Positions 2,379 through 56,813 of a DNA stretch of 57,252 bases are shown here, one piece after another. The notes beneath the pieces were generated by a model that was not told the DNA's origin, ran no database searches, and saw only the letters and a list, made by a program, of their open reading frames with translations. Numbering within the stretch: position 1 is the stretch's first letter; each line of letters opens with the position of its first letter. The DNA comes from Rotaria socialis (lineage: Eukaryota), in the NCBI GenBank assembly GCA_905331295.1, contig CAJNYD010000173.1, positions 1 to 57,252 on the forward strand, written 5' to 3'. A program made the position numbers and the translations under genes.

Positions 2379-2432
2379 TGGGGTGCGGGGGTTTGTATAG
2401 CGACGAGGCGCACCCACACCCTCACACCCTCA
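2379..2432. repeat. Telomere-like inverted site A: GGGGTGCGGGGG-spacer-CACCCACACCCTCACACCCTCA
   Basis: G-rich arm, ~20-nt unique spacer, C-rich arm; read directly. Confidence 0.7.
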
Positions 2433-3749
2433 AGATATTCATTGTTTAGTTTATTTGAAAAATACAATATAAATTCTTTTCATTTAAAAAGAGCAAAAAC
2501 AAATGCCGTGAACATGAGCCATGGAATTTGATTAATTAAATCTGACAATATGACTATTATAAAAGCCACCATCAACAAATAAGGAATCAGTTTGTCGGTA
2601 ACACTTTTTAATGCGGTGTGAAGCACACTGTTCATGTAGTTCGTCGCGAGTTTTCTTTTTTACTTACTCGACGTATGTATCTAACAAGTCACTTTGTGAG
2701 CTGATGATCTCGACATTCGAGAAGCTGCAATTTTTTGAAAAGAGCTAACTTCGAGATAATTAAAATGAATATTCCAAGAAAAGATAGGCGCGAATCTTTT
2801 TTTCTTCAATATAAAACACTGTGAACGCAGCTGATTATAGATAATGACTAATCTATCATGTCTGACTTTTTCAATTGCTTTTTTTTGTTGAAAATAGCTC
2901 TTTCAGGAAAACGTGATTTTTGGATTTCTGCGAACCAAAAAAGCTTATTTGTCTAAAGCGATAATATCGTTTTGAGTTCAAAAATAGATCAAACCTATGT
3001 TACAAGTAATTATTTCAACGATTTTAGTTTTATAAAGTTTTGTGGCATAATAAAAATATCAAATAATGATTGGTGTGATAAGTAGGCATATGTATTGTTA
3101 TGAATCGTCAATCTTCTTTTATAAATTACAACAAATTTTCTCTTTATATGAAAGCGTTTCTATGAAAAAAGAACCTGAGATCAATCACTTAATATCTATC
3201 TCTCATATTTATAGCCAATAACGAAAGATTTCAGTAGTCAGTTTACGTGCTTACACTTATTAAGATATTTTTCTTTTATCTTGGCTGATCAAACTTCAGC
3301 AATCTCAAGACATGTACTAATTATTGAATTAGTTCTGTGAAAAGATGAACCGAATGCTACATAAGATAAAGAATTTCAAAAGCTTTAATTTATCTAACCT
3401 AAAAAAATTTCAAATAATATCATGCCATTCTAAAAGGATTTATTACACTTATAAATGATCTAAACTTGGCTTAGTGGTGACTAATCAATGATATGTAAAA
3501 TCTTCTTCGACAAATACATATTGTAAAACGAAGATCATGTCGTGTTCTCAAATAACAAGAACTTTGATATGAGATGTTCTCATATTTCGTCCTTAACGAG
3601 CATCTAGCAAATAAGTGAACCCACAAGGTTTTGAGGAAACTTTTTTCATTTCACGATAGAATGCTCTCTTAGCTACATATCTTGTGAAGAAATTCATTGA
3701 TTTTCCTGATCCATTCGCCCTCACTGCCTTGACGTGTTAAAATTAATGA

Positions 3750-3837
3750 AGGGTATGGGTGTGGATCTCTTGATTGCGACATTCATACCCCACACACGAA
3801 CAATGGAAACATTCACACGTGCGCATTCATACCCTCA
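3750..3837. repeat. Telomere-like inverted site B (degenerate): GGGTATGGGTGTGG...ATACCCCACACAC...CATACCCTCA
   Basis: Degenerate G-rich then C-rich arms; read directly. Confidence 0.55.
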
Positions 3838-4054
3838 TTTTACTGTCAAGTGCTCTTGCTTAATAGAATTCGAAATTATTTCTGATTTCTGATTTCTATC
3901 AGTTCAAAGTTAAACTCAGTCTCCACCGCATCAGTTGCTTATGTGAACGATATAATCTCCAATAAAATATTCTAGTTCTTTCTAAGTCAGATATATTGAA
4001 AGTCACTTTAAAATTCAACTTCTGAAAAGAGTTTATCGTCACTAATACTATCCA

Positions 4055-6125
4055 TTAAAAGTCAATCACTAATTTGGCGTTTTTCTTCGCAGTTTCCATC
4101 ATATGTTGTGTGGCTTCATCGATTCCATTGTTGCTGAGTGAGAGTGCGGTGAGTGTCTGTGAGAAAAAAACGTAGAGAAAATACAAAAGATGAAGAGAGC
4201 AGGATATTCACTGTGTTATTTTGTAAAGCATCAGCAAGATATTGGGCCCCTTCATTTCCGATTTTACATCCATATAAGTAGAGTTGACTGAGTGTCTGTA
4301 TGAAAAAGCAAAAATGGATATGATAAAGATGAAAAGAGGCAGATATTCACTGTGTTTTCCCGTAATGCATCAGCGAGATATTGGGCTCCTTCGCTTCCGA
4401 TTTCATTTCCATAGAGATTGAGATCAATAAGCGCCTGTTTGAAAAAAGGGACGAGACAAATGCGAGAGATAAACAAAGAAAAATGTTTACAGTGTTACGT
4501 CTTAAAGCATCAGCTAGTTGTTGAGTCCCTGTGGCTACGATCGAATTATATGAGAGGTCGAGCGTGGTTAAAGTCTGTGTGAAAAAGTAAACATGAAAAT
4601 GATAAAGATAGAAAAAGGAAAGTAGTTCACCTTGCTATTCCGTAAAATATCAGCTAGACCTTGAACCGCTTTGTCTCCGAGTAAATCATACGATAGATCA
4701 AGTTGGGCGAGGGTCTGGATGAAATGGTGAAGATGTAAATGAGAGGCACGAAGAGAGAACGTTGTTCACCTTATTATTTCGTAAAGCATCAACTACATGC
4801 TGAGCTCCTTCGACTCCAATTCGATTGGCACGAAGGTGAAAATTTGTGAGCGTCTATGTGACAAAAAAACGATGATAAACATGAAAGATATGAATGAAGA
4901 GAAAGGTTAACTGTATTATTGCGTAAAGCATTAGCCAGGTCTTGAGCTCGTCCTTCGCTTTCGATTTCGTTTTTCCAGAGATCGAGTTCGCTGAGTGTCT
5001 GTTAGAGGACAAGAAAATGGAAATGCGAAAGATAAAGAAATAAAGTCTTCTACAGTGTTATTTCGTATAATATTAGCTATATCTTCAGCCGCTTTATCGC
5101 CGATATCTACACCGCCGATTATCAGTGTTTCAAGTGTCTGTGTGATCAAATCAAGATATAAACGAGAAAAACGAAAAGAAAAGGAGACTTGCCGTATTAT
5201 TTCGCAAAGCATCGGTTAGAGACTGAACACCTTCGTCTTCAATTGTATTGCTCACGAAGCTGAGCCTGGTAAGTGTCTATTTGGAAAAATGAAGATAGAA
5301 ATAAGAGAAAGGAAGAGACAAGGAGACCTACAGTGTTATTTCGTAGAGCGTCAGCCAAATGTTGAGCGCCTTCGTTCTGAAATTCACTGTTTGTGAGTTT
5401 AAGTGTAGTGAGTGCCTACAAGAAAAGCAAAGATGGAAATGTGAATAATGAAGAAAACAAGAGGTTCACTTTGTTATTTCGTAAAATTTGAAACAGATGT
5501 TGGGCCACTTTGTCTCCGATTTCCATACCACTGAGCTGGAGTGTGCTAAGTGTCTGCATAATAGAGTGAAAGATAGGAATGAGAAAGATGAAGAGAAGAA
5601 GAGGTCTACCGTGTTATTTTGTAAAGTATCAGCCAGATATTGAACATTTTCTGCACCGATTTCATTGCCACTGAAGCTGAATGTGGCGAGCGTCTGTATG
5701 AACAAGTAAAAACATAAGTTGGAGGTATAAAGATGGGAAGAGATTCACTGTATTGTTTTGTAAAGCGTCAATCAAATGCTTCATCCCTGCATCTCTCATT
5801 GTATTACCAGAGAGACCGAGTTCGGTGAGCGTCTGTATGAAAATATTAAGATAGGTAATATAGCTAATTATATGAGAAGTATGAAGGAAAAAATTAATTC
5901 ACTGTGTTATTTCCTAAAGCGTCAGCTAGGTGTTTTGCCGCTTCGTCCGTGATTGTATTGTACATCAGGTTAATTTTGCTGAGTTTCTGTTTGAAAAAGT
6001 GAAGAGAGATATGAGAATTATGAAGAGAAGAAGAGATTCACTCTGTTATTTTGAAAAGCATCAGCAAGGTGTTTACCAGCGTCGTTGCCTATTTGACTTG
6101 ACATGAGTGTGACGTCGATGAGTAT
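4055..6125 (-). CDS. RI-like (NLRC3/LRR_6-type) leucine-rich-repeat protein, one 28-aa LRR per exon; 5' end unresolved (possible first exon ~6176-6303)
   Basis: Phase-0 exons 6042-6125, 5903-5986, 5749-5832, 5610-5693, 5470-5553, 5332-5415, 5193-5276, 5054-5137, 4912-4998 (87 nt), 4770-4853, 4631-4714, 4491-4574, 4351-4434, 4212-4295, plus terminal exon 4055-4156 ending in TAA. Each reads TLxxLxLxxNxIGxxGAxxLAxALxNNT with no stops. All introns are GT-AG except one GC-AG. Confidence 0.88.
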
Positions 6126-6850
6126 CTGTGTGAAAAAGTAAATATAGAAATGTGAGAAATGCATATAGGTAACACTTGGGTAATGATGAAACAAAGGAGC
6201 TGGCAATGGTACAATGCGCTGAATGGACAACAACTCTTGTGTAGGCGTGGAGTATTTTCGTCTTCGTGAGTTTTCATATACTGAACTATCATGGAAAGTA
6301 TCATTTTTGGCCAACTGATTGCCCACAAAACATAAAGCAATGCCTATTAAATTTCTGACCTGTATCTAATGTGGATTTTTTCTGCAAAATTTCTTTCAAC
6401 TAGTTAAAAATAGCTTTTAAAAGAGTTTTTGATGAATGAAATTGAAACGAACATAAAAAGTTATTCAATCTTCGCATAGCCTCAAAATACGAAGGCATTT
6501 TTATCTTACTTTTAAAATTCTAGATAAATGTTTTAAATTGTGGTCATAATTCAAAGAAGATTTTGTATGCATATATACCTCCAGTGTTGCCGATGCCAAA
6601 ACTCACTGCGTGGCAAGAATGAATTTAGTTGTGATTTATGTTATGCTAACTAACACGTACAGTTACTAAGTTATCTTCCTGTCAGATTCTTATTAGAATA
6701 TTGGTCTTATTGACTAAAAACAGTTGACTAAATCCTAGTCCCATGGTTCAAAAACATTCACTGTAACGCGTATCAAAAATGACATTACAAGATAGTAGGT
6801 CATACAGATGTGTTAAATTTTATATTTTCTTCTTCTCAATATTCAAAATT

Positions 6851-7087
6851 TATTCGCTTACTTCGCTATTTTGTAGTTTATTGGCAGCAATAATCATGTC
6901 TTGTTCAGATAATTCTAACAATATCAATTCCGGCGAATCACCATTTTCAGCAAAAATCTGGTCAACGTCGACTTTGGGACATTCTGAGTTATCCTTTGAT
7001 TCTTGTTCTTGCTCTAAAATGCGCACATGTTTAAGAAATCCTTTGTGTAAGAAACAACGAGGAGGAAGAGATAAACTAATTGTTTCT
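6851..7087 (-). other. Possible terminal coding exon or relic of an unidentified gene (..SLPPRCFLHKGFLKHVRILEQEQESKDNSECPKVDVDQIFAENGDSPELILLELSEQDMIIAANKLQNSEVSE*)
   Basis: Open, protein-like acidic frame after a TTTGCCAG acceptor; upstream exons could not be assembled. Confidence 0.3.
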
Positions 7088-9143
7088 CTGGCAAATGTAT
7101 ATATGATCGATTATAAGTTCTTAAAAAATAGACTCCAATAAATCCATAGCTTTCGTTTGACAAACGTTTCAGAAAGTGCGTTAGATAAGTCTTTGCATAT
7201 TAGAGAAAGACCAAGCATTCAACTCTACACTCAGCAATACAATGTTGCTTCTCAATAATACGTCTAATACGTGAAATGGTTACTCAAACTGTATGTACAT
7301 ATGACTTTCACTTCTGTGACGCCCACTAAAGTATACCTGAAGACATTTCTTGGGACACAAATTTTGATATCTGAAAAATGCATATTTATACGTATATATA
7401 ATATGAAATTGATTAGTTCTCGTCGTTCCCAATAATCAGGAATAATTTGACACAAGATGAAGACCGAGGAAATGATTATAAACTGAATCTGAAATGAACA
7501 AAGAATTCACAAACAATCATCCACAAGTATCATACAATAAAAAACAAAAAGAACTAGAAGAACTAGAAGAAAATCACAGTATCTCTGTCACGCCCATGCT
7601 TAGATGCAGACTAAATCAGGAGCAACATAAACGACTGCGAAGGAAACATTAAAGATTCGTAAATATTTGTATTGAAGCGGTAATTGTTGCATACAAGCAT
7701 TTGATCATCACCATGCTAGTTTATATGCCCATAACAGAGGTATGAGCACCAGTACTCTGGTTTTCAGAAGTTAATGTACAATTGAAAATGAAAGGAGGGT
7801 AACCATTTTGCTTTTTATAAAAGAAAAGGATGAGGATGTATAAAATCCTACTTTTGTTCAATGAAATTTTCTCTCATATTATCTAATGAAACCAAATATA
7901 AATTAAAAGAGGGTAATTTCGTGAGTATTTTGATACTAACGTAAGTTCAAGCCATATTTACCAACATTTTCGAATATAGCATCATTTAACAACTGAACGA
8001 TGTCGCTGCATATCTAGGCATATTGTGGTCTATTTTCGTCACGCAATGAGAATATCATAAAATGTTAGACCGCGTGCGATAGTTCTTTCCATCTGGTACA
8101 AAACCATCTTAACAGTGAAATGAAAAAACATGGCCACATAGTGGAAAACATGGGTAAACTCTCTATATAACATGACTTATTACTGTATTATATATGTATC
8201 AGTATCCGAAACTGTGGTTCATCATTTGATACAACTAAGACTGCTGCTTCTATTCATTTGTATTATCGAATGTATCTGATACCGAGCGTAAGTCGTTCAG
8301 ACAAAGCTCATTGACAACCTATCAGATGTCTGCACTAGTATATTGACACTAAATAAGGCATACGAGTTAAATATTTTACCATGTATAGAGCTGTACTGAA
8401 TTTACTTTTTACGTAGATAACAGCCATGATAAAAAAAAGGAGTAACACTTTTTTAAACCGTTTTTGCAGAGACTCATGCAAATGTTGTTTATATAGCATA
8501 TGTAAAAAATGACAAGATCAGTAATTATCGGTGGAACACAGATGTTTGTGACTTAAGCGGATAGGAGCCCAAAATGTTGTATACGAAACATTTCTTGGGC
8601 TATGAAGTTGAAATAGTTTTCGCACAGAATTATTTTGTGAAACTTCTCAATCGATGCTTTTCTTTATACAACATGAGATTGGAAACAATGATGAATGCAC
8701 ATTCACATGAAAAATAAAAACGTTGAATCGATATTTACCTGCGCCATTTACTCTCGTGGCAACTGTATGTGTTTCGATAGTGATTTATTCAGGTATTTAT
8801 ACCTGGAGCTCGTCAGTCACTCAAGTTGCACAACATGCTCACAATATTTTACTTTGCTATCGTCAAAACAGGGCAAATATTTATAATTTATTTTTCTTGT
8901 TATTTTCTTTCGCTTTCTGTTTTTGACGATGAAAACAAGTTTCATTCAATTTGCTAAATTAAGACCAACAAATAGATGAAGCGACCATCGTTTGATATTC
9001 TGTGAACTTGATAAATTCCATGCAATAGTGAGATCATTATTGTGATCATAAAGCAGAGCCCACGACGTTAATCCATGATATAGAAGAAGCACAGCCTAGA
9101 AAATAATGTAAAACGCTATTTATGACTACTGTATACTTGAAAT

Positions 9144-9516
9144 ATAGGGTGTTGGGCATAGTTTTCGCTAGTGAATACATATTCAATATTATGATTTGAA
9201 ACCATCTAAATAATCAAAAATCATGGCATAAAGATTTTAAAATAGATAGACAATATGTTACACGAGAGCTTAGAAAGCGATAAAATACCTTTGGTATAGA
9301 CTCGTTTCAACACATTTCCCCTCATAATACAAAAAACAGCCCAATTTTTACAACTAAAGATTTTACCACTCAGTTCTACTGTTGAGAAGTGATGGTTATT
9401 TTATGGACTTCATCTTATATGAAGAATCGCAACCAGATCATTTTGAATATTTGGGTCTCATCTTTTATGGCTTATTCATAACCAGAGAACGTTACCTGCA
9501 ACAAAGAACACCCTGT
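9144..9516. mobile_element. Degenerate Tc1/mariner-like MITE
   Basis: Short inverted ends TATAGGGTGTT ... AACACCCTGT resembling CAGGGTG-type termini; non-coding interior. Confidence 0.35.
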
Positions 9517-10969
9517 CCTTAATAGAAGCCAGAAAATAACTCATCTAGTTGACCATAGTATTTTGTTTATTTGCCAAATATCAATTACTGTCCCTCTTAT
9601 CGATGCTTTCTTTCACTCTAACTTCACTAACAGGTGAATACATATATTTACATTTCACGGTTGTTTTGCTTATTCATCACAAAAAAACCATTACTTCGAG
9701 CGAAGGCCATCACGTTCTGAAGGGAAAAAAGTATCGAATACTACAATATTAAGAAGGCCGGCTACGAATTATCAAAGAAACACATCATACTAGATCCGCA
9801 CGACGAATATTTTTCTTGGTGCGACTTTACAAAATCGATAATAAGCAAAAAACTATTACGTGTTTGATGAAAAAAAGCAAGAAATATCATCCTTTGTAAT
9901 AAAAAGGTCAATTTTTTCACGCATGCCAATACAAGAAATATTATTAATTGATATTTCGGTTTTGTTGAAATAATTGTAGTTCCGTGACACCATTAACTGT
10001 TTTTGATGCGATTCAAATGAAAAAGAAAGTCATTTTCTATAATGAAACGATCGTTATATTTAATATATTTTAAAGCAATGTTTGATATTTGACATTTTTA
10101 TGTTCTCAAAATTATATCTCCACGAGAGTCAATATGTGAAACTGATTACAGACCAAAATTGTTACTTTTTTATGATCTAAGACATTTCTAGAGTTTTTAA
10201 CTGGAGTTTTCGAAAGCCATACTAGCTCTGATAAGTTTATAAAATCTGTATCCATTTTTAATTAAAAATAATTGACATATTTAAGTTGATGAGATATGTT
10301 ATGAAAAAAGTAGGATAGAGAATGTTGTTTTACAATCGATTAAATATAGAATTCTTGTATTTACAAAGGTTTCTTTTAAATTTTTAACCAGGGAATCTTC
10401 GATCTTACACGAACACTTTCAAGTATAAACCATGACTTTCATCCATTTTACTTCAATTGAAGATCTTCACTATGCATCGCTCAATTCAATATATACGTAT
10501 TGTACAGAAAAGAGTTTTGCGAACTATAAAACAGTAAGTTTTGAAAAATATTGAATTTTCGAGTTGGTATGAATGGACAAATCTAGAATACTAAACTATT
10601 CAGTTAGTATCACTTATTCAATATATGCTAAAATTCACATGTTAGAGAACGTCGATAACTCATAGTTTGCGATTGAAATACGATAGCCATCTGTAGTTTT
10701 TACTAATAGAATAAAGAAATTGTCATAAGAACTAGTTAACTCAGTATATACTATTTATTTTGATATAATTCTTTTTTTATTATAAGCATGAATTAGCACT
10801 ATGATTATGACAGTTCTAACGAAACAGTACAATGAATGAGTAAGAAATGGCTGGAAAAAAACAAACAAGTAAAACAGGGAAAAGAGCGAAAAACGTTTAT
10901 TCTCTGCCTCTCTCTTATACTTTTTCTTTTCTTTTTGTTATTGTAAACTTGGAAATGTATTTTTTCGAA

Positions 10970-10986
10970 GGGTGGGTGTGGGTGTG
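10970..10986. repeat. One-sided telomere-like tract C (GGGTGGGTGTGGGTGTG)
   Basis: Direct reading; no clear C-rich partner. Confidence 0.55.
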
Positions 10987-12427
10987 AATGAATAGATGTA
11001 TTTCGAACACATAATGCGAAAAAAAACTAGTTCATCATTGATTGTTGAAGATGATTGCAGATATTCATACCGCTGGATAGTTGTTGCAAAAATTTCACTA
11101 TTGAAATTTTTTTATTAAACAACCAAGAACGGATGTAGCAATGTTCAACAGAATTGATACCGATAGAGTTTTTTAATGCTCTACTCTTTGTTAAAATTTA
11201 ATTCATATATTGAGAAATTCAAAGTTTTGCAAGTTGCAAGATTTTGTTTTACAGATATTTGATTTTTCGCTTTTCCTCCTTGTCAGATTTGTCCTGAACA
11301 CTTGTACGATACTATAGAGAAATTTACCAAATATCAAACATCACCATCTTTTTCATTTTTCACGTTCTTTCTTTTGAAGAGCATCTTTCATAAAATATTG
11401 TTCACAGACTCGCTTGAGTCCTTCATGTACCGTCTTCCATTCTATAACAACTTATCACCCCACTGAAACGTGATGAATTTTCAGTCATATCACATCTCCG
11501 GGCACGATAACAAAATGCAAACGAGCGTTTTATAAATTAATGATAACTTCGGTCATTTGAAAAGCTGATAGCAATACCCAATTCTATAGGGACGACCTCA
11601 TATACCATAAATAATGTATCAAAAATGCCTTAGTTTCAACGTTCAAGCCTAGCAATAGAAACGATCACTCACGAAAAAAATTCCGTCACGCCTACAGTAA
11701 AACCTCTCGTTCCGGCCTCATTCTCATTCTTTCAGATACCGCCCATTAAATAGTAGTACGACGTTAGACATAATAATCGTATATTCAAAAAAAGTTGTGC
11801 ACCGCACGCTACCCGCCATGAATTGTCAACAGCATTTTTCACACAAAGCCTAGCTTTATTCTCATTGATTTCTATATTCTCTGATTTGGGACTCACATGC
11901 AATTTAAGTAGAATTATTCGTGCTGTGTAGATGAAATGCATTTTTGACCTGAACTACATTTTTCCGCTCAAATTATTCCTTTATTGCACCGATCAATTCT
12001 TTGTCTAATCCTTTGATGATAACATGGAAACAAACGTTGGTATAAAGAAAAACAGAAAAAATTGACAACTTTAATATAATTCTTCTCGTAAAGTTCATGG
12101 AAATCGATATTGAAACAAATATTTTTTTTGTGTGGCTGAAAATAAATCCTGTAGTGAATTCGATAGATGTTGTCTGCATATTGACGCTTTATTTTTGTAG
12201 AGAACTTCAAAAACAAGGTACGTTTTGAAAAGCCAGGCATCTGAATAGAAACATGCAATACGCGCAAAATCTGTTAGAAAAGTATCATTCGATTGTTTAA
12301 AAACTTATGTCTTCAAGATCACACAAAAATCTAAATACAATTTTGTATTCTGATGTTTTGATTTTGAAAATTTTGACTTAAAACTAATAAAACTGACTGC
12401 ATTAAAAAGTATACTCAATACTAAAAA

Positions 12428-12482
12428 GTGTGTGTGGGTGTGGGTGTGGCTTAAGAGAGGACCCACGCCCACATCCACCCTC
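12428..12482. repeat. Telomere-like inverted site D: GTGTGTGTGGGTGTGGGTGTGG-CTTAAGAGAGG-ACCCACGCCCACATCCACCCTC
   Basis: Direct reading; abuts the 5' end of the TPR fragment. Confidence 0.8.
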
Positions 12483-12991
12483 AAGATTATCTTTAATTCA
12501 TACGACAAGAAACAGAAGAACTGAGTGTTTCTATTGCATTTAGTAGATTATTATGTGATTTGAGCGAGTACGATAAATCACAGAAATATTTTTGGAACAA
12601 TTATTAAATGATTTGCAAAATGAAGATCATCCTTGGATCGAATATAATATTGATCGAATTCTTGCTTACAAGGGTGAATGGGATGAGGCTCGAAAAATAT
12701 TATGATCGTGCATATGATCGAGTGGCGAAAACTGAACCACCGCGAGCCAAGAATTCTTCTTTGGTCCTCCAAAATATTGGCGTTATTCTCTACCAACAAG
12801 TAAAATACGACGAAGTTCTCGAGTATTACCTAACAGCATTGAAAATAAAGAAGGGATTTTATCCATCTGGCCATAAAAATATTGCTACGAGCCTGAACGC
12901 CATTGGCAATGTTTTCCAAAAACAAAGAAAGTTCGATAAAGTTCTCGCTTATTATCCGAGAGCATTAAAAATTCAACAATAATTTTATCGA
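12483..12991 (+). pseudogene. Truncated, frameshifted fragment of an ART-TPR family gene (TPR region only)
   Basis: Aligns by eye to the gene at 13391-15313 from ~14619 onward (e.g. CAAGAAACAGAAGA, TATTATGATCGTGCATATGATCGA). It has an early in-frame TAA, +1 insertions at TATTTTTGG and CGAAAAATAT, and no start codon or ART domain. Confidence 0.85.
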
Positions 12992-13026
12992 TGGGTGTGG
13001 GTAAGAATAAATCTCCACCCACACCC
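12992..13026. repeat. Telomere-like inverted site E: TGGGTGTGGGT-AAGAATAAATCT-CCACCCACACCC
   Basis: Direct reading; abuts the 3' end of the TPR fragment. Confidence 0.8.
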
Positions 13027-13390
13027 TTTTGATTATCTGAAAGAATGATTACAACAAGAAAAACAAATTTAATCAGCTGCAAATAGATTTCTAAACGTGT
13101 TTTTTCTCAGTTACATTCAATTTAAGAAGTGTCTTACAAAAAGTTTTCGTAGTCAACTTATCTCTATGATACGTCTTTTGATTTCACTTGAGAGACTCTG
13201 TTTACTCGGTAAAAGAAACTAGACTTTGTTATCAGCAAAGAAAAAAAGATACAGAATAAAACTCACCCAACAATAATCTATTTAACTAAAACAAAAAAGA
13301 CACATTCAGAGATTTCAACACTAGATATCTCTTGTTTTTATTCTAAGTTACAATTGCAGCGGCGAGGAAATTTTCTCGTAGTAAGTAATT

Positions 13391-15313
13391 ATGGTAGAAG
13401 CACTTGTAGAAGCATCACCGAAGAAAAATAGATTAAAAGAGAGTATATCATTGCGTCAATTATCTTCAAGAACAGATGACAATGATAATAAAGAAAGTAC
13501 AACTCTTATTTGGTTTGATCCTAACATTGGATCACATGAAGATACAAAAAATACGAAACAACAACTTCGACTTATCAACGATTTTGTTATTTTCATGACT
13601 GATCTTGATCATTGTGTTTCATTTATTCAATCGATTAACAAAGAAAAGATCTTCTTAATTACATCTGGGTCAAAAGCATCACTACTTCTATCACGAATTT
13701 CTTCTTGTCAACAAATTGATTCAGTTTTCATTTTTTGTATACAACAAGAACGATATGAATATTTACTAAATGAATACTCGAAAATCATCGGTGTTTATGT
13801 TGATCTGGATGATTTATGTCAATCAATTAAGAAGCAAGTTGATTTAGTGAATAAACAAATTCAAACATTTTCTTTTTTTGATCAAAAAGAAAAATCAACA
13901 AAAGACTTATCCAAAGAATCTGCATCGTTTCTTTGGTTTCAATTGTTTAATTATGTCATTGCGCGTCTTCCAAGAAATCAACAAGCAAAGCAACAAATGA
14001 TCGACATCTGCAAAGATTATTATCGTGGAAACAAAAGAGAGATGAGAGCAATCGAAGAATTCGAAGAAACCTATCGGCCTGAAGTTGCTATAAACTGGTA
14101 TTCGAAAGAGTCATTTGTCTACAAGTTAATCAATAAAGCATTGCGAACAGAAGATATTGATCTTCTTTACAAGTTTCGTTTTTTCATTGGCGATCTTTCG
14201 AAAAATCTTCAACAAGCACATGAAAAACTTTTATCATCAAAAGAAAAAATTGTCAATGTTTATCGTGGAGTTCAACTCGGGAAAGCAGAGTTTGAGAAAT
14301 TGAAACAAAACCAAGGAAAACTGATTTCAACCAACGGGTATTTATCAACGAGCCGAAGAAAATCGTCAGCAGTACGTTTCTCAAGAGTACCAAATAGGAG
14401 AATGGATGTAGTACCTATTCTTTTTCATATCCAATGTGATATTGAACACATTAATAAGAATATTATTTTTGCTGACATTAGCCAATTCAGTGAATTTCCA
14501 GAAGAACAAGAAGTTTTATTCGACATGAATGCTTGTTTTCTTATCGAGTCGATTCAAGAAAAGGATTCATTGCAAATCATCAAGATGAATCTTTCAAATG
14601 AAGGATACAAAATTACAAAAGATTATCTTAAATTAACACGCCAAGAAACAGAAGAGCTGAGTGCTTCTATTGTGTTTGGTAGATTATTACATCATTTAGG
14701 TGATTATGATAAATCACAAAAATATTTTGAGCAATTGCTGAACGATTCAGAAAATGAAGATCGTGCTTGGATTGAATTTAATCTTGGGCGAGCTGCTTAC
14801 TCTAAAGGTGAATGGGGTGAAGCTCGAAAATATTATGATCGTGCATATGATCGAATGATGAAAAGTGAACCGCCACGAACCAAAGATTCTGCTTGGGTTC
14901 TCAATGATATTGGTAATGTCCTCTATACACAACAAAAGTACGATGAAGCCCTCGATTATCATCAACGAGCATTGATAATCCGAGAGAAATTTCATGCATC
15001 TGACCATGGAGATACGGCTACGAGCCTAAACAACATTGGTAATACTCTCGGTGCACAAGGAAAGTACGGTGAAGCCCTTGATTATCATCATAGAGCATTG
15101 AAAATTCGAGAGAAATTTCATCCATCAGGTCATACCTATATTGCTGTGAGTCTGAATAATATTGGCCTTTGTTATGAACATCAGAACAAGCAAAGCATGG
15201 CACTTGAATACTATCGCCGTTCATTGAGTATATATGAGAAGTTTCTTCCTGCTGACCATCCACAAATACAGAGAGCACAAAAGAATATTGATCGACTTTT
15301 TGGAAAAAACTGA
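13391..15313 (+). CDS. ADP-ribosyltransferase (R-S-E clade) + TPR repeat protein, 640 aa, intronless
   Basis: N-terminal LIWFDPN...IFLITSG domain. ART motifs WYSKESFVYKLINKALR, VYRG, GYLSTS and EEQEVLF. About 5 kinesin-light-chain-like TPRs (ATSLNNIG...EALDYHHRALKIREK). Confidence 0.9.
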   Translation: MVEALVEASPKKNRLKESISLRQLSSRTDDNDNKESTTLIWFDPNIGSHEDTKNTKQQLRLINDFVIFMTDLDHCVSFIQSINKEKIFLITSGSKASLLLSRISSCQQIDSVFIFCIQQERYEYLLNEYSKIIGVYVDLDDLCQSIKKQVDLVNKQIQTFSFFDQKEKSTKDLSKESASFLWFQLFNYVIARLPRNQQAKQQMIDICKDYYRGNKREMRAIEEFEETYRPEVAINWYSKESFVYKLINKALRTEDIDLLYKFRFFIGDLSKNLQQAHEKLLSSKEKIVNVYRGVQLGKAEFEKLKQNQGKLISTNGYLSTSRRKSSAVRFSRVPNRRMDVVPILFHIQCDIEHINKNIIFADISQFSEFPEEQEVLFDMNACFLIESIQEKDSLQIIKMNLSNEGYKITKDYLKLTRQETEELSASIVFGRLLHHLGDYDKSQKYFEQLLNDSENEDRAWIEFNLGRAAYSKGEWGEARKYYDRAYDRMMKSEPPRTKDSAWVLNDIGNVLYTQQKYDEALDYHQRALIIREKFHASDHGDTATSLNNIGNTLGAQGKYGEALDYHHRALKIREKFHPSGHTYIAVSLNNIGLCYEHQNKQSMALEYYRRSLSIYEKFLPADHPQIQRAQKNIDRLFGKN

Positions 15314-15584
15314 AATCATCCAATGATAGGTCAAAGATGCTGATTACATGAAACACTTGATGAGTTTTTAATTGTGCTCGAATCTTTTTTTTTGAACAGT
15401 GTTTGTTTTGAATAAATTGTAATGAAAAATAATTCAACCCTAATAGTTCATTTTCGAGAACGAATTCTTGTGTTTTTTTGTATTTATTATAAATAGATAT
15501 GAGTTAATAATGATGATCAAACAATGAAAAGCATAATGAACAGTAATTCACGACAAAAAATAATGAATGTCTCTAAAAAGTATC

Positions 15585-17518: not shown

Positions 17519-19617
<2,099 letters not shown>

Positions 19618-20100: not shown

Positions 20101-22387
20101 ATGGGGCAATATATAACAACTCATGCTTTTTATCATTCATATACCGATGAACCACATGCCACACGTCGAAAAGAAATGCTTCGTAAGCTAATCGGATTTA
20201 GTTTAAAAGACGTCTATTTACCTAATCTTGTTATTTAGAAAAATATCCTGAAATAAAACAACTAATGGGACCCGATTGGCGTATGGCAATACAAGTTGTT
20301 ATATCTGTAATAATACAAATAACTGTGGGAATACTTCTCAAAGATGCATCTTGGTCAACATTACTTTTTGTTGCTTACGTTGTTGGTGGTACAATAAATC
20401 ATACATTGTCATTAGCTTTACATGAATTAACGCATAATTTAGCATTTGGTCATTCATGGCCAATATCTAATCGTCTATTAGGTTTTTTTGCTAATATTCC
20501 ATTAGGTGTACCAGCATCGATTACATTTAAAAAATATCATCTTGATCATCATAGGTAAACATAATAAAAAAAACAAAGTTCATTTTTTTTTGTGTTATCT
20601 GATAATATTCTTTAGATTTCAAGGTGACGAAGTATATGATACGGATATTCCAACACGTCTTGAAGTGTTTTTATTTTCATCACGTATAGGAAAATTTTTC
20701 TTCTTAATCATAATGCCATTTCTTTATTCTTTACGACCTGTATTCGTTTTTCCAAAACCAATACACGTATTGGAATTAGTTAACATTATGATTATGATAG
20801 TATTTAATGGAATAATGTACTATTATTTTGGTCATAAAACAGCATCATATTTCGTTCTGGGTACTATACTCGGCCTTTCGATTCATCCTATTTCGGGACA
20901 TTTCATTGCTGAACATTATGTCTTCAAAGAAGGATTTGAAACTTATTCATATTATGGACCATTAAATGCTATTACCTATAATGTTGGATATCATAACGAA
21001 CGTAAAGAAATTACTGGATAATTTAGTTTAATTTTCATGTCAATCGTCTTTGTTTAGATCATGATTTTCCATATATCGCGGGTAGAAATCTACCTAAAGT
21101 ACGCAAAATTGCTCCTGAATATTATGATAATCTTCCATCTTACACAAGGTAAGTGTTTACTCAATGAAGTTGAAAAAGAAAAAACTCATTTCAAGACATT
21201 TATTCTCTTTGTTTGCAAGAGAATGAATATCAGAATTTTGAGTTTATCTGTGATCAATGAGCTTAAAGAGGACTTTCGTCATTTTGTGACTGTAAGTTTT
21301 GGTTGGTTGTGGTCTAAATATGCTTTCAACTAACTGCTAACAGCTAAATATATTCTCAGATTTGATAGAATCTCACTAATTTGTTTTATAGATATTAAAA
21401 AACATAAAGCACAATTTAGCTATGTTTGCCAAATTTTGAATCACTTCATTTCTCACGTAATTTTATGTCGAATCAAGCTGTTACTGATTATTGACAAAAT
21501 ATCTACTGTTATGAGAGGGTCTTAGTTACACGGCTCGAGGGATTAGGAAAGGTTAAATTTTAACCTTTTCGATATCTATCTGTTAAAAGCATTTAGAAAT
21601 AAGTAACATTTACTCGCCTGATAAAGATTTGTATAACACGAAAATTTTCACATGGATTATTCAGTCGACGAATTGAGAACGAAGGTGTCATGTTTTACTC
21701 TCCCTAGGTTATATGCAGTTAGGAAAAGCATCGATTGAAATTCGTTCCCTCGGGATTTTTGTATTATGTAAAGCTTTTCCCAACTTATAGTTACCTGCGT
21801 AAAACTTAGTCACCCATTTTGCTTTTCCAAACCTGGAAATCCCAATGATGATTCAAGCTTCAAGAATTGAAAATGAAAATTTTGCTTAATTGAATGTCAC
21901 ATACTAACATAGATATCTATTAACCATTGAAAGACCGTAGATAGATGATACCCAGGTTGAAAAATCTGACACAATATCTTGAAATACGAGCGAAATCTTA
22001 CAAGAATCTGACAAAAAATCGTAGTTATACGATCTTTCAAGAATCTGATTGTATGAATTGACCTCAAATCTCAGGAACTACGATTTTTTGTCAGATTTTC
22101 GTATGATCGTGCAAGATCTTATCAGATCTTACAATATGATTGTTCGACCTGGGTATTCTTCTTTTTTTCAAATTTGATTAAAACTATTTTAAAACAGATG
22201 TCTTACTATTTTTTAATTATTGTCTAGTTGGGTTAAAGTACTCTACGATTTTGTCATGAATGATAATGTTGGTCCTTGGGCACGTGTAGTTCGACCTACA
22301 AAACTCGGCGTTGAACCAGTCGTAAGCCAACAAGAATATGAACAAAAATTGAAAACAATTGTGAAAGAAGCTCACAAGCGTGATTAA
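20101..22387 (+). CDS. DEGS1: Sphingolipid delta(4)-desaturase, paralog 1 (5 exons)
   Basis: [20 protein letters not shown]; His boxes HELTH, HLDHH, HNEHH; exons 20101-20182, 20239-20554, 20616-21001, 21058-21148, 22228-22387. Confidence 0.93.
21951..22153. mobile_element. MITE in the last intron of desaturase paralog 1
   Basis: Ends CCCAGG...CCTGGG flanked by TA on both sides; internal inverted repeat AATCTGACAAAAAATCGTAGTT / AACTACGATTTTTTGTCAGATT. Confidence 0.75.
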
Positions 22388-23527
22388 CTAGAGAAACTAC
22401 TACAGCAACAAATATTCAAATCGTCGTTTTTTGTTTCTCTTAAATTGACAGTCATGAAAATCTGATTGATTTATGATAACTGATATATCATGGTGTTTTC
22501 AGCATAGATGGTATTTTTGATGCTTGCATGATAGTCGATGTTTGATTATAATATCTTTCCTTCTGTTGTGTCAGATTCTTTTTTGTTCATCTTGCATTCA
22601 TTTTAAAACATCTCTCGAAACTTCTTCTTTCTGTTTCTCATCTCTTCTTTGAGAAAATCAATCACAAACACAAAGTGGCATCTTTTTTTTTATTATCCTT
22701 AACTTGTGCTTTATTTTGTGTCGTGCGCGTTGTTCTGTTATGTCATCTGTGCGGCATAACTTTCAAACTCTGTCCATGTATCAAGTCTTCCACCTATTTG
22801 ATTTGTTGCTCTAGTCTTCCTTTGTTATTTATACGGTTGAGTAGCAAAAAATAAAAATCTATACACTAATTGTGCTACGAGTGAATTAAAAGAAAGAAGC
22901 AATTAAATTTGTGAACAAATCTTTATTGGCACAATAACAAAGATAATTCTAAGACATTAAGAAAAAAACACAATACACTCGTATACGGACGGAAAAGTAT
23001 GACAAATTGACACGGAAAAAAAATATATAAAGAACGCAGTTGTACTTAGTTTTATATTTTTATTTTGGCTTCTAAGAATTTCTCATCCAATGGAATGTAA
23101 GATAGACACCTTAGAAAGTTTTTCTTCAGATATCTCAGAGAAAAACAATCAATCATGTATGTAAAGGACAATATTAACTTTTTTTTATTCTATTTATTGA
23201 GGCCTACTTAAAAAAATTAACATAATATTGAGAATATTCGCTGACATGAGTAGTCATGTGGTGAAATTTAATAAAAATTGACTTTAAAAAATTTTAATAA
23301 ATACCAATGAATTGACTTTAAAAATGGGACATAAATTTAAATTGTCGTAGGAAATGTTTTCTACTGGTCGAAAAGATATTGTCCTTTACATAAAAAAATA
23401 TAATCTCTGAGATTTCTTCATTACCAGCGAAAAACATGCGGTGTTTTAGAACAAGAAAATTGCAAGTGCACACAACAAAAACATAAAAACACATGCGTTT
23501 AGGTGCTTTTTTCTTATATGCAGAGTA

Positions 23528-31295: not shown

Positions 31296-31364
31296 GAGTG
31301 TGGGTGTGAGTGTGGCAAGGTGGTTTTACTTTTCTCTTTATCCACACCCACACCCACACCCCAC
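31296..31364. repeat. Telomere-like inverted site F: GAGTGTGGGTGTGAGTGTGG-spacer-CCACACCCACACCCACACCCCAC
   Basis: Direct reading. Confidence 0.8.
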
Positions 31365-31699
31365 GCAGAATTTTCGAAATCAACTAATGACCCTATATAA
31401 ATTTACTTTTCCGTTAATGCTTTGCATATTCCCCAATGTGTTTTGTTCCCTAATCAAATCATGTTTGTAAGAAAATATAAACACAATGTTTACTGCTATC
31501 GTTATAATTTGCTGCTGAACTCGATGGTGTGACGAAGAGGTATCCACAGGGCTGAGTGCGCATTGTTTCCGTTAGCGAATTTAACCATAGGAAGCCTACT
31601 CGAGCTATGAGCTAACTTTCATTGGAGAGATCTGCTTATTTAATTGAATTACTTCGGTGTGCCTAAATTGTGTTTTTTTTTATTGAAAGCAAACAAAAG

Positions 31700-32124
31700 C
31701 AATACTTGTAACAAAAATAAAAAAAATAGGGGTAGCGATGGAATGAATGAAACAAAGTATCTAGTCAAGAATAATGATGGTTCTCTTGCTGATTTCATAC
31801 ATCCAGACGAGAAAGATACAATCAGCCGAGGTAAAGCTAAAATAACCAATAATATAGAATTAATAATCAGATTTTTATGTTTAAGAAACTGTTCCTGTAA
31901 ACTCTTTGCATACGATTATTTTTTTTATGCACTGTTTCCCGTTTCTCAGCAATACAAAGAATGATACCAACAGTTGAGATAAGTTTAAGCCCGAACGGAA
32001 CAATGAAATGAAAAATATTGATGAATAAATTGTAGTTTTCAATACTTGATGTTAACCGAATCAAGCAGCATGTTCGTTTTACTTCTTCATCATTAATCAG
32101 GCCTCGATAAATAGGATCGTGCAC
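31700..32124 (-). pseudogene. 5'-truncated, frameshifted fragment of a rhodopsin-like GPCR (ECL2 to TM7 region); 3' boundary approximate
   Basis: HDPIYRGLINDEEVKRTCC..INIFHFIVPF.. then, after a frameshift near the poly-A at ~31920, LQEQFLKHKNLII..LVILALPRLIVSFSSGCMKSAREP..YFVSFIPS. I recognise this as resembling the C-terminus of rotifer-expanded GPCRs. Confidence 0.75.
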
Positions 32125-32125
32125 A

Positions 32126-32165
32126 GGGTGCGGATCCCAAGCGAAGACCCGCACCCACACCCTCA
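32126..32165. repeat. Telomere-like inverted site G: GGGTGCGG-ATCCCAAGCGAAG-ACCCGCACCCACACCCTCA
   Basis: Direct reading; coincides with the truncation point of the GPCR fragment. Confidence 0.75.
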
Positions 32166-35826: not shown

Positions 35827-36739
35827 TTATTTGACAAAACAATCTTTGCCAGCAGCGCAAATACAGTTGTTGAGATCAAGATGAATACGATTTTGCCAAC
35901 CAAGCTGACGAATTAAGTGAAGAATCCACGTGGCACAAAATTCGCCTACTTCTTTACGATCTTTCGATGCAAGAGCAGGTTTCGCGTGCTCATCAACTAA
36001 GCCTGTTAATAAATAGGTCACATAGTTAGGACAAAAATTTTCACGACATGCTTCAGCTTCGTCATTGCTGCTCACTGAGCCACAACTTGTTTGACAAGTA
36101 TCAAGATAGAGTTCTTGACGGTCGTTCATTGACGGTGCTGCCATACTACTAATAACTAAAGAAGAAGAAGAAGAAGAAATACGTTACATAGATTTGGGTG
36201 TGGGTGCGGGTACTCGGGGTGATGCCTGAGTTGTATACCTTGGGGTGTGAGTGTGGTTGTAGGGGTATAAATGTATTCATATGTCGCATATATCGGAACG
36301 TTAAAGTAAAACTAAATCTATTCCTAGATTTAGTTTTAGTTTAACTTTTTCTTTCCTCCATTTATATTCGAACTCGAATTAGACAGCTACTCGTCTATAA
36401 AGATTCCTTTGACAAAAGAAAAAAAATCGGATGTATGATAAATGTAAAAGGCCATTTCTTTTTCCGTTTGTCAATATCGTAATAATGAGCTTATTCACCA
36501 GAGAATTTTATTCGCGTTCAAGACAAATAACAATTTTCTCAATGGTTTGTTAACAGATCAAGATGACGAGTTAACCGATGGAAGTAGTTATGAATGAAAA
36601 TGTTATTAGGAATCATTTAACGGAAATCATTCGTACGCGAACAAAAGAAACAACTAATCGCCGGAAAACGGAAAGGCTCTAAAAACATTTGTTTGTACTT
36701 ACCAAACATGCCCAAAATAAGAAGACTAATTGGAACCAT
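35827..36739 (-). CDS. Small secreted cysteine-rich protein (~121 aa, 2 exons), unknown family
   Basis: Exon 1 36703-36739 (MVPISLLILGMF, donor GTAAGT) splices in frame to exon 2 35827-36155, giving a signal peptide and a mature region with 8 Cys. Confidence 0.75.
36195..36266. repeat. Telomere-like site H, two G-rich tracts in the same orientation, intronic
   Basis: TGGGTGTGGGTGCGGGT ... TGGGGTGTGAGTGTGGTTGTAGGGGT. Confidence 0.65.
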
Positions 36740-38972: not shown

Positions 38973-39875
38973 ATGTACATCCATCTATTCGCCATTTTGA
39001 TTGGTAGTAATCTTTTATTACTGTCAACATGTTTAATAATTCATAAACATCGTGTAAAAGATAGCGAAGAAACGTGTCTCGACAATTATTTTCGATCAAT
39101 AACTACAAATTATCTACGACCATGCTATATAGATAACTATCGAGATCGTTCTATATTTGTTTGGTTTACAATCGAACAATCACTCTTTCATATATTTCGT
39201 GGATATCGTTTTGTATTACGATCTATCGATGAAATATCCCTATCGACTATTAATGTACATATCCTAACTAATTTTACGCAATTAATTGATGCAAACAATA
39301 GTCTACATATCTTAAATCTTGATCCTGGCCTATATGAAGTGTGTGTTGATTTTCAATCGTATTCAACGTCTTATATTTATTCGCCACGTAATGGTTGTGT
39401 ATTTATTCGTCGAACTGAATTATTAAATAGTTCATTTAAACAAAATTCCACACAATTAGTTATGGCATCAATTGTTGGTATTATTCTTTTTCTAATTGTT
39501 ACTGTTTGCTTTCAACTGATAAAATTATCTCGAAGAGAAAAAGACGATTCCGAACAGCGAATTAAACGATCAATGATGCTTTCGTCAAAAAAACAACGTA
39601 ATCATCTACTAAGAAAATTATTTCGTCGTCATACAAACGATCAACCTGATAGTTCACGTTTACGACAATGGATACCTAATCGAGTTTTTCGCAAGTATTT
39701 TTCAATTAAAAAACTGTCAAGGCAAACCGAACAGATTTCAACAAAGAAGAAAGTTAGTTCACAGAAAAATCTTCCGTCACCAGTACCAACTTCGACGACA
39801 AATGATATTTACACAATTCCAATGAACAGATTTTCATTTTATTTAACTCCATCAGAAGAATTCGAATTTATTTAG
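38973..39875 (+). CDS. Single-pass membrane protein, 300 aa, possible FN3-like ectodomain
   Basis: Hydrophobic N-terminus, LDPGLYEVCV motif, TM segment (LVMASIVGIILFLIVTVCFQLI), basic cytoplasmic tail. Confidence 0.7.
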   Translation: MYIHLFAILIGSNLLLLSTCLIIHKHRVKDSEETCLDNYFRSITTNYLRPCYIDNYRDRSIFVWFTIEQSLFHIFRGYRFVLRSIDEISLSTINVHILTNFTQLIDANNSLHILNLDPGLYEVCVDFQSYSTSYIYSPRNGCVFIRRTELLNSSFKQNSTQLVMASIVGIILFLIVTVCFQLIKLSRREKDDSEQRIKRSMMLSSKKQRNHLLRKLFRRHTNDQPDSSRLRQWIPNRVFRKYFSIKKLSRQTEQISTKKKVSSQKNLPSPVPTSTTNDIYTIPMNRFSFYLTPSEEFEFI

Positions 39876-54983: not shown

Positions 54984-55069
54984 GTGCGTGTGGGTGTGAA
55001 TCGAGCTCTGAGTCATGAATAGAGTGTACATCAACACAAGCCGCACCCACAAACCCACACCCACACCCC
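54984..55069. repeat. Telomere-like inverted site I: GTGCGTGTGGGTGTG-spacer-CCGCACCCACAAACCCACACCCACACCCC
   Basis: Direct reading. Confidence 0.78.
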
Positions 55070-55327
55070 AAATGAAAAAATGATGAATCATTTATCGAAG
55101 CAGTTGGAAGACAATTCGCTATATAGAATGATAATTTTGAATGAAGATCGTTAAAACATGATACTTCATTTAAACTAAATAACTAATAAAACTATCAAAC
55201 ATTCATAAAGGAAAAATAACATCAAATTCTCTCGTGTATATATTTATGTTTCACTATTTTCTTTATCTTACGAGGAAACATTCTCAACTGTGAGTCACTG
55301 ATTGAAGTGATATTTTGATCATATATA

Positions 55328-56221
55328 GCGGGTGGACCATAAATAATGGCGGTCTCATTATTTACTCAATATCTTTTTTGCTCTTCATTGATTTGAACTG
55401 ACCATTTTCCCAAAAGATTGAGCATTCAATTCTCCAGAAACTCATGTGTAAAAGATTTTTTAAAACTACAAAATGGCTTAGTACTAAAACGAAGAGAAAC
55501 GGTTAAAAAATCTTCAACTTTCAAGCTCAGCATTCATTAACATTTGGAGTATGTTTCGACAATTTATATGCAGGCTTAAGTTACGGGAGAAGCATGTTCT
55601 GGTATTTTCAAGTACGTTCTTTTCAATGTATTTGAAAAAGATTTCTTTAAAAGTGGTCTTCGCCTATTAAATCGATATTTTCTGAAAACTCGTCCATGAG
55701 GCCTGAATTTCGGTTTACAAGAAAGTCTACAGGGGTGTAATCGAGTATGTTGGCTTTGAAAGAAAACAAAAATCGTCAAAAAATAACACTTTTTAAGTGA
55801 ATGGCATGCGTTTTAGTGCAAGCATCAAAAACATGACATAACAGTTGTGTTTTTTTAGAAAAACCAAAAAAATTGATACAGAATTTTTTACTCATTTTGT
55901 AAGGAAAGAAAAATTCGAACACATGAATCTTGCCCAGAATCTGACGCTCTTTAACATGGTAGACTGAGTTTTTGTAGATCTTGACATGGAAAGCAAATTT
56001 TCAAAAAAAAACGGATTTAGTGCTGGAAAGTTGAAGATTTTTCGACCTTTTTTTCTTCGTTTTAGTAATTAACCATTTTGTTGTTTTAAAAAATCTTTTA
56101 CACATGAGTTTGTAGAGAATTAAATGCTCAATCTTTTGGGAAAATATTCAGTTCAAATCAATGACGAGCAAAAAAGATATTGAGTAAATAATGAGATCGC
56201 CATTATTTATGGGCCACCCGT
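55328..56221. mobile_element. Non-autonomous DNA transposon with ~200-bp TIRs, TA-flanked (Tc1/mariner-like)
   Basis: GCGGGTGGACCATAAAATAATGGCGGTCTCATTATTTACTCAATATCTTTTTTGCTC... is mirrored by ...GAGCAAAAAAGATATTGAGTAAATAATGAGATCGCCATTATTTATGGGCCACCCGT; no transposase ORF. Confidence 0.88.
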
Positions 56222-56389
56222 TAGATCTTATGATCTTCAGAATATTCTGAAAGTGTTTTAATCAAAACGGAAGAAACATGTTCATGTCACAAAAATGGAA
56301 TTTTCTTCAGCATTCAACATTTCAAAAAGAAACCATCAATCCTGATTGAGACTTTCAGGATGTTCTAAAGATCATAAGATCTATATATG
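56222..56389. mobile_element. Small palindromic MITE interrupted by the larger element
   Basis: TAGATCTTATGATCTTCAGAATATTCTGAAAGT / ACTTTCAGGATGTTCTAAAGATCATAAGATCTATATATGA. Confidence 0.7.
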
Positions 56390-56768
56390 AGCAATGCTTC
56401 AAATGAAGAAGAAAAATTTATGGGGAAGAATCTTTTTAGGTTTTATCTAGTCTCAATGAGTCATAATTATAGGCAAAATATGACTATAAAACAGACGTTT
56501 CGTTTTTTCTTTTATAACATATAGCATTACTATAAATTTTCTAGTCTTTCAATAATCTTTGTAATGCTTATTCTAAGAGTATATATGAGATTCTCTATAG
56601 GGTTAATAAAAGAAAACAATTCTCAAATGAACAAAAAAATAACAATTATATTGAAAAAATGGATGAGTGTTGCATGTTTGAATAAATGAATATTCACTCG
56701 GTTTTTCCATTGATTGTTGAAGATAATTGTTCTGAATTCTGCTTTATGGCGTCAAAATTAAAAATAAA

Positions 56769-56813
56769 GTGTGGGTGAGGTTGTAGGTCTCTGCTTGCCT
56801 ATCACCCAAACCC
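56769..56813. repeat. Telomere-like inverted site J (degenerate): GTGTGGGTGAGGTTGTAGG-spacer-ATCACCCAAACCC
   Basis: Direct reading. Confidence 0.55.

What the first reader, a model, noticed from the sequence alone, without database searches (positions are those of the whole stretch)
2379..56813. Dispersed (TGTGGG)n-spacer-(CCCACA)n 'fused-telomere' micro-scars across the window
Seen: eight two-armed sites (2379-2432, 3750-3837, 12428-12482, 12992-13026, 31296-31364, 32126-32165, 54984-55069, 56769-56813) and two with G-rich tracts only (10970, 36195) in strongly AT-rich DNA. In all eight two-armed sites the G-rich arm comes first and the C-rich arm second. The roughly 11-45 nt spacers are unrelated to each other, which argues against a MITE family. 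Four C-arms end in ACCCTCA. None interrupts an intact CDS. Established (from memory): bdelloid telomeric repeats are TGTGGG/TGAGGG-type, bdelloids survive massive desiccation-induced double-strand breaks, and G-arm-then-C-arm is the geometry of two telomerase-extended ends joined together. Inference: these are footprints of a repair route in which both broken ends receive 1-4 degenerate telomeric repeats and are religated with a short filler. I am not aware of this being described at such density.
Basis: partly seen in the sequence, partly recalled or inferred. Interest (0 to 1): 0.88.

Follow-up and report, generated by a model that had tools for sequence, protein, structure and literature searches.

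The report
Telomere-repeat seams around broken gene fragments
In this bdelloid rotifer DNA, eight short seams carry telomere-type repeats facing each other, three seam edges fall exactly where gene fragments are cut off, and the seams are likely scars of broken DNA ends that were given a few telomere repeats and then rejoined, which would be a way for loose DNA pieces to enter chromosomes.

Summary
All eight two-armed sites exist, G-arm first (automated scan: 4-6 G-then-C pairs, 0-1 reverse, shuffles 0-0.03). The DNA is from a Rotaria bdelloid. New here: the sites mark breakpoints. A 510-bp frameshifted TPR gene piece starts at the last base of one C-arm and ends at the first base of the next G-arm; a GPCR piece is cut one base from another G-arm. 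The eight sites fall into four close pairs (p about 0.03), as if fragments capped at both ends were joined in. No target-site duplications, no spacer family. Best reading: telomere repeats added to broken ends, then end-joining with filler (0.6). Open: no empty homologous site was seen; the enzyme is unknown (one paper found no TERT in Adineta vaga); arms partly mirror each other, so fold-back copying is a real rival; the nearest named relative does not desiccate, so the desiccation link is unsupported. This scan noted the same geometry in four other bdelloid windows; eight literature searches found no description of it in bdelloids, but key older papers were not readable.

The parts
2379..2432 (.). 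two-armed seam 1 (G-arm variant GGGTGCGG, 16-nt spacer, C-arm ending ACCCTCA with an 8-nt stutter)
   Evidence: spanned by a contig of run X3
2433..3749 (+). 1.3-kb segment bracketed by seams 1 and 2; holds a possible decayed RasGEF N-terminal piece near 2600-2800 (weak)
   Evidence: Pfam RasGEF_N E 0.001 and 0.0064, below the curated cut-off; no PDB or Atlas support
3750..3837 (.). two-armed seam 2, long interior with further degenerate C-type units
   Evidence: spanned by a contig of run X3 with no differences
10970..10987 (+). G-only tract, followed by ATGAATAGA, the 9-mer it shares with the spacer of seam 7
12428..12483 (.). two-armed seam 3; its last base is also the first base of the TPR fragment
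12483..12992 (+). 510-bp frameshifted fragment of an ART-TPR family gene, cut at both ends exactly at the arms
   Evidence: 75% identical to 14619-15125; identity 26/30 inside vs 8/30 outside on the left, 23/30 vs 6/30 on the right; no other remnant of the gene in 1-13380; Pfam TPR
12992..13026 (.). two-armed seam 4; its first base is also the last base of the TPR fragment
   Evidence: spanned by contigs of runs X1 and X3
13391..15313 (+). intact ART-TPR gene used as the homology ruler (neighbour, not part of a seam)
31296..31364 (.). two-armed seam 5
31365..32125 (-). 761-bp segment bracketed by seams 5 and 6; 32124-31712 is the frameshifted C-terminal part of a rhodopsin-family GPCR gene, cut one base from the G-arm of seam 6
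   Evidence: Pfam 7tm_1; Rotaria homologs align from residue 134 of 314 and 515 of 680 starting at 32124, earlier residues match nowhere in the window
32126..32165 (.). two-armed seam 6, about 150 bp upstream of an ARV1 coding region
36195..36260 (+). two G-only tracts, 50-115 bp upstream of a minus-strand ORF start
54984..55069 (.). two-armed seam 7
55070..56768 (.). 1.7-kb segment bracketed by seams 7 and 8; no protein family found; contains a 919-bp element with 193-bp inverted ends
56769..56813 (.). two-armed seam 8

Best explanation
The seams sit at DNA breakpoints and are likely scars of a repair route in which a telomere-repeat-adding reverse transcriptase (inferred; telomerase or an Athena-type enzyme) put one to four units on each broken 3' end before the ends were joined with a short filler. 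Shown: geometry, polarity, breakpoint position at three edges, absence of TSD and of a spacer family. Inferred: each broken end primes on about one base of match to the repeat; two G-rich tails cannot pair, so they are joined by end-joining with 12-60 nt of non-local filler; a loose fragment treated this way at both ends and joined into a break leaves two seams around it, which gives the close pairs. The first unit TGAGGG in 4 of 16 arms and the recurrent TGCGGG unit suggest one RNA template with fixed variant positions (inferred).
For: Polarity 4-6 vs 0-1, shuffles 0-0.03. Repeat unit equals the published bdelloid telomere units (PMC7943196 supplement 10). TPR fragment cut at both arms to the base, with one shared base at each edge. 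GPCR fragment cut one base from an arm. Four close pairs: gaps 1371, 8678, 564, 18304, 830, 22858, 1785; p = 0.029 scale-free, 0.0012 with a threshold chosen after the fact. TSD 0-3 nt per site, as in the null. Spacers have no local template longer than 11 nt in the window. Two other contigs of the same organism join a G-arm to a C-arm across different fillers of 23 and 19 nt (table 5c, 12 of 25 rows shown). Precedent: telomeric repeats at deletion breakpoints in A. vaga lines (PMC13564844); head-to-head tracts at a few vertebrate repair sites, explained by addition to both sides (PMC8537989).
Against: Only 3 of 16 arm edges could be mapped to a breakpoint; two searches at the left flank of seam 5 found no credible homolog. 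No empty homologous site was seen: contigs that differ from the window by SNPs still carry the seams, and none of the 15 joints shown (of 65) skips one. TERT was not found in A. vaga by one study (PMC5405514). The two arms of a site resemble each other more than arms of different sites in some tests (p = 0.001-0.14 in 8 alignment and folding tests; 0.23-0.34 in 4 variant-word tests), which independent addition does not predict. The pairing weakens to p = 0.016-0.14 if only 50-25% of the window can accept insertions, and two G-only sites were left out of that test. The nearest named relative is non-desiccating.
Confidence: 0.6

Rival explanations
1. One-ended addition with fold-back: only one broken end receives repeats plus filler; its 3' tail folds back, copies its own arm to make the C-arm on the same strand, and is then joined to the other end. 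Still a repair scar, but not a fusion of two capped ends.
For: Variant units occur in both arms of the same site (GGGTGCG at 2379 and 32126, GGGTATG at 3750, TGGGTGA at 56769). Own-pair folding of 17-nt arms beats cross pairs, p = 0.0011; longest-word tests p = 0.024-0.046. One filler seen has a 5-bp inner stem (GGTTC/GAACC).
Against: Variant-word tests p = 0.23-0.34, whole-half folding p = 0.10; n = 8 and boundaries were set by eye. C-arms do not run on into a copy of the left flank, arm lengths differ, and TGAGGG starts occur on one arm only in all 4 cases. Later hairpin-driven correction between arms would also give mirroring.
Confidence: 0.2
2. Footprints of Athena/Terminon retroelements: their reverse transcriptase or their telomere-complementary 3' ends leave the tracts, and the spacers are tiny element remnants.
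For: These elements attach to G-rich ends through (ACACCC)n or (TCACCC)n stretches and are cut off by short telomeric tracts (PMC6431247); Athena fragments occur at A. vaga breakpoints; TERT may be absent.
Against: Spacers share no family word; no Rfam match, hammerhead included, at gathering score in the window; no RT ORF among the ORFs scanned. Head-to-tail element chains give tracts in one orientation (inference), not facing pairs.
Confidence: 0.08
3. Tiny non-autonomous DNA transposons or hairpin elements with telomere-like inverted ends.
For: Arms form 7-11 bp inverted repeats and fold as hairpins; TIR elements exist in the window.
Against: No TSD above the null, no conserved termini, no spacer family. 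Coding sequence does not resume on the far side of a seam, as it would after a simple insertion.
Confidence: 0.06
4. Regulatory elements: paired CACCC/GT boxes of the kind bound by KLF/Sp factors (motif recalled, no call).
For: Seam 6 and the G-only tracts at 36195 lie 50-170 bp upstream of coding starts.
Against: Binding boxes would not need a fixed facing order and do not explain base-exact cuts in gene fragments. Most seams are not near a gene start.
Confidence: 0.04
5. Assembly chimeras or chance.
For: The window's assembly is unknown; five sites lack a read-level check.
Against: Five sites are spanned by contigs of other runs; shuffles give about 0 pairs.
Confidence: 0.02

Closest known systems
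Short interstitial telomeric sequences (s-ITS) and TERC-ITS of vertebrates (PMC7215372, PMC8537989; passages read)
   Same: Few telomeric units at a repair site, bases in register with the repeat, added filler, no TSD as a rule; a few loci have head-to-head tracts attributed to addition on both sides.
   Different: Head-to-head is the exception there and the rule here (8 of 10 sites); there about 229 loci of four or more units in a human genome, here 8 in 57 kb (thresholds differ, so not like for like); there proven by empty orthologous sites, here not; spacers here are not shown to come from telomerase RNA.
Fusion ITS and inward telomere fusions, (TTAGGG)n-(CCCTAA)n (human 2q13; cancer fusions, PMC11293586 passages)
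   Same: Same facing geometry of two ends joined.
   Different: Those join chromosome ends with tens to hundreds of units; these have 1-4 units, a unique spacer, and bracket fragments of 0.5-1.7 kb among ordinary genes.
Neotelomeres at deletion breakpoints in Adineta vaga (PMC13564844, passages; fig. S25 not seen)
   Same: Same repeat, same group of animals, at break sites.
   Different: Described as one-sided caps that stabilise fragments and are later removed; no rejoined head-to-head seams in the passages read.
Short telomeric tracts among Athena/Terminon and Hebe elements in bdelloid subtelomeres (PMC6431247, PMC2861651 passages)
   Same: Short interstitial TGTGGG tracts marking former ends.
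   Different: Tied to retroelements and chromosome ends; here no element is attached and the window is gene-rich.

Membership tests
short ITS inserted at a double-strand break | few units of the host telomere repeat at an internal site | tested here: met
   the repeat of this very species was not read from chromosome ends
short ITS inserted at a double-strand break | position at a break, with deletion or added filler | tested here: met
   3 of 3 mappable edges, of 16
short ITS inserted at a double-strand break | empty homologous locus in an allele or sister species | tested here: inconclusive
   none among 15 of 65 joints shown for 1000-15500; runs may be one clonal line; one metagenome locus without seams was not orthologous in flanks
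short ITS inserted at a double-strand break | bases in register with the repeat at the break | tested here: inconclusive
   one shared base at 2 of 3 mapped edges, a weaker one at the third; too few
TERC-ITS | flanking piece copied from telomerase RNA | not testable with these tools
   no bdelloid telomerase RNA found in papers or Rfam; spacers share no significant word
fusion ITS | head-to-head G-then-C order | tested here: met
fusion ITS | flanks are former chromosome ends or subtelomeres | tested here: not met
   flanks are gene fragments and intergenic DNA among housekeeping genes
MITE | target-site duplication | tested here: not met
   0-3 nt at 8 of 8 sites, null mostly 2-4
MITE | family of copies with shared interior and ends | tested here: not met
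   (window only)
Athena/Terminon footprint | hammerhead motif or RT sequence next to the reverse-complement tract | tested here: not met
   divergent hammerheads could be missed at gathering score

The most novel reading that the evidence does not exclude
Bdelloids have a routine cap-and-fuse repair route: any loose DNA piece gets one to four telomere units on both ends and is stitched into a break treated the same way, leaving paired facing seams. At roughly one seam per 7 kb this would be a main engine of gene-fragment shuffling and the missing integration step for their horizontally acquired genes, readable in sequence, with arm starts and variants spelling out the still unknown RNA template, and working even in a lineage that no longer dries out.
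Probability: 0.3. Interest if true: 0.85.

Novelty: new variant of a known kind. Interest (0 to 1): 0.63.

Why it matters
How bdelloids take up foreign DNA and mend shattered chromosomes is a long-standing question. These seams give a searchable mark: if recent foreign genes and gene fragments are bracketed by paired seams, the integration route is identified. The arms also predict the template of a bdelloid telomere-adding enzyme whose identity is unsettled. If the seams are as common in non-desiccating as in desiccating Rotaria, drying is not their cause.

Tried and rejected
No whole genome is held, so no genome-wide count. A metagenome scan with the ART-TPR protein confirmed 1 of 83 stretches; that 3.4-kb locus has no seam. 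Pattern scans returned 55 viral loci and 120 prokaryotic loci; none resembles the window by tblastx and they look like ordinary hairpins or chance. Homolog searches at the left flank of seam 5 in two frames gave nothing credible. Pfam scans of flanks and read-through frames gave only the weak RasGEF_N match, unsupported by PDB and Atlas. A codon-usage score of flanks was uninformative. My idea that spacers are read-through of one RNA template rests on a few short shared words and is not significant. A 5-nt repeat around pair 5-6 is within the null. A joint in run X1 with 39 other letters at the left edge of the 10970 tract, and a pond-metagenome contig 93% like the TPR fragment that does not cross a seam, could not be resolved. 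Papers not held: PMC5850863 and PMC6512322.
Full report
Observation. The ten sites are present as described. An automated arm scan paired G-arms and C-arms within 100 bp: G-then-C versus C-then-G was 4 vs 0, 6 vs 1 and 5 vs 0 at three stringencies, against means of 0-0.03 in 30 dinucleotide shuffles. Two of the eight sites (2379, 32126) have G-arms too short for that scan. Spacers are 12-62 nt, 42% G+C against 32% for the window, have no match longer than 11 nt elsewhere in the window, and share no more words than shuffles do (p = 0.07-0.19). Flanking direct repeats are 0-3 nt, as in the null. Contigs of runs X3 and X1 span sites 2379, 3750, 10970, 12428 and 12992; the other five sites have no read-level check.

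Organism. Homologs of the protein at 38973-39872 are from Rotaria magnacalcarata (88%), other Rotaria (55-59%) and Adineta steineri (50%); the GPCR piece also hits Rotaria proteins. The telomere unit is TGTGGG in A. vaga and TGAGGG with TGTGGG as a variant in Philodina roseola (PMC7943196 supplement 10, read whole). The unit of this species was not read from chromosome ends. R. magnacalcarata, R. socialis and R. macrura are obligately aquatic and non-desiccating (PMC7943196 passages), so the window likely comes from that group (inference from one protein). The link to desiccation is therefore unsupported, although the seams are old enough to predate a loss of tolerance: the bracketed fragments are frameshifted.

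The seams mark breakpoints. The stretch 12483-12992 is 75% identical to part of the intact ART-TPR gene at 13391-15313. Identity to that gene is 26/30 inside and 8/30 outside the left edge, 23/30 inside and 6/30 outside the right edge; the edges are the last base of the C-arm of seam 3 and the first base of the G-arm of seam 4, and no other remnant of the gene lies in 1-13380. On the minus strand a rhodopsin-family GPCR piece begins at 32124, one base from the G-arm of seam 6; homologs align from residue 134 of 314 and 515 of 680, and their earlier residues match nowhere in the window. So 3 of 3 edges that could be mapped are breaks; 13 of 16 edges had no usable homolog. The neighbour gene is a ruler, not a proven donor; its nearness and shared strand hint at a local origin.

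Pairs. Gaps between successive two-armed sites are 1371, 8678, 564, 18304, 830, 22858 and 1785 bp. That the four short gaps alternate with and are all below the three long ones has p = 0.029; perfect pairing within 1785 bp has p = 0.0012 on the whole window and 0.016-0.14 if only half to a quarter of it is available; the two G-only sites were left out. Of the four bracketed segments, two hold clear gene fragments, one a weak RasGEF_N match below cut-off, one a TIR element. Each reads C-arm, fragment, G-arm: the layout of a piece capped at both ends.

Beyond the window. In one search, table 5c (12 of 25 rows shown) two contigs join a G-arm to a C-arm across new fillers of 23 and 19 nt, so the geometry recurs in this genome; no reverse join is among the rows shown. 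No joint shown (15 of 65) skips a seam, and contigs with SNPs still carry the seams, so no empty allele was seen; the runs may be one clonal line. Collection scans brought no further bdelloid seams. Four earlier notes of this scan report the same geometry in other bdelloid genomes; they are unchecked notes, and their claim of conserved spacers is not borne out here.

Mechanism. Best reading (0.6): a repeat-adding reverse transcriptase extends broken 3' ends by one to four units, priming on about one matching base, and the ends are joined with filler. The enzyme step and the joining step are inferred. Four of 16 arms start TGAGGG and then run TGTGGG, and TGC units recur, which fits one template with variant positions. 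The enzyme is open: one survey found no TERT in A. vaga (PMC5405514 passages); I recall reports of bdelloid TERT but could not read them. The main rival (0.2) is one-ended addition with fold-back, because own arms match better than cross pairs in some tests: p = 0.022-0.139 in six alignment tests, 0.0011 and 0.098 in two folding tests and 0.23-0.34 in four variant-word tests. Athena/Terminon footprints (0.08), MITEs (0.06), regulatory boxes (0.04) and artefact (0.02) fit worse; no Rfam family matches the window.

Known or new. Short telomeric tracts inside bdelloid chromosomes are known (PMC2861651, PMC8494291, PMC6431247 passages), as are repeats at deletion breakpoints in A. vaga (PMC13564844 passages; its supplement held no usable text). 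In vertebrates short ITS arise at repair sites, and a few are head-to-head (PMC8537989, PMC7215372 passages); inward fusions are known in cancer (PMC11293586 passages). Also read in passages, adding background only: PMC3846280, PMC5537684, PMC8557442, PMC12133305. Eight searches found no description of dense, paired, spacer-containing head-to-head seams in bdelloids; Gladyshev and Arkhipova 2007 and 2010, Gladyshev et al. 2008 and Arkhipova et al. 2017 were not read and may mention them, and nine supplement files of PMC7943196 were not searched. It works like a break-repair ITS; membership lacks the empty-site proof.

Verdict. Real feature, new variant of a known kind, interest 0.63. The bold reading, a routine cap-and-fuse route that captures loose and foreign DNA, has probability 0.3 and would deserve 0.85.

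Noticed in passing
window 2154-2191: A stretch of about 38 bp where many contigs of runs X1 and X3 begin and end (13 and 12 loose ends on the left; bin depth several times the neighbours): a short repeated element just after the poly(A) site of the ubiquitin-domain gene.
   Followed up: no
window 55317-56235: 919-bp element with 193-bp inverted ends, 89% complementary; MITE-like, inside the segment between seams 7 and 8.
   Followed up: partly
window 56858-57161: 300-bp palindrome (126-nt arms, 7-nt loop) starting 45 bp after seam 8.
   Followed up: no
window 20139-25053: Inverted pair of paralogous genes, 63-72% alike at DNA level; they look like sphingolipid desaturases (label recalled, no call).
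   Followed up: no
window 1105-2058: Gene joining a ubiquitin domain (E 1e-20) to a weak PARP/ART-like region (E 0.02-0.05); covered by one contig of an RNA-type run.
   Followed up: no
window 4119-6155: Minus-strand leucine-rich-repeat-like gene (label from the look of the sequence) built of about 139-bp exon-intron units.
   Followed up: no
window 36195-36265, 31296-31316, 32144-32165, 56769-56787: Non-canonical words recur between arms of different sites: a 16-nt word in 32126R and 36195, a 14-nt word in 31296 and 36243, a 9-nt word in 56769 and 36256; the unit TGC makes 5 of 25 counted units against 14 TGT. Possible template variants.
   Followed up: partly
window 11035-11056 and 56708-56729: A 22-nt stretch with one mismatch shared by the flanks of the 10970 tract and seam 8.
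   Followed up: no
window 13013: A base in the spacer of seam 4 is read differently by all covering contigs of runs X1 and X3.
   Followed up: no
window 29619-29711, 21995-22107, 36297-36348, 405-554: Several further short palindromes in intergenic DNA.
   Followed up: no
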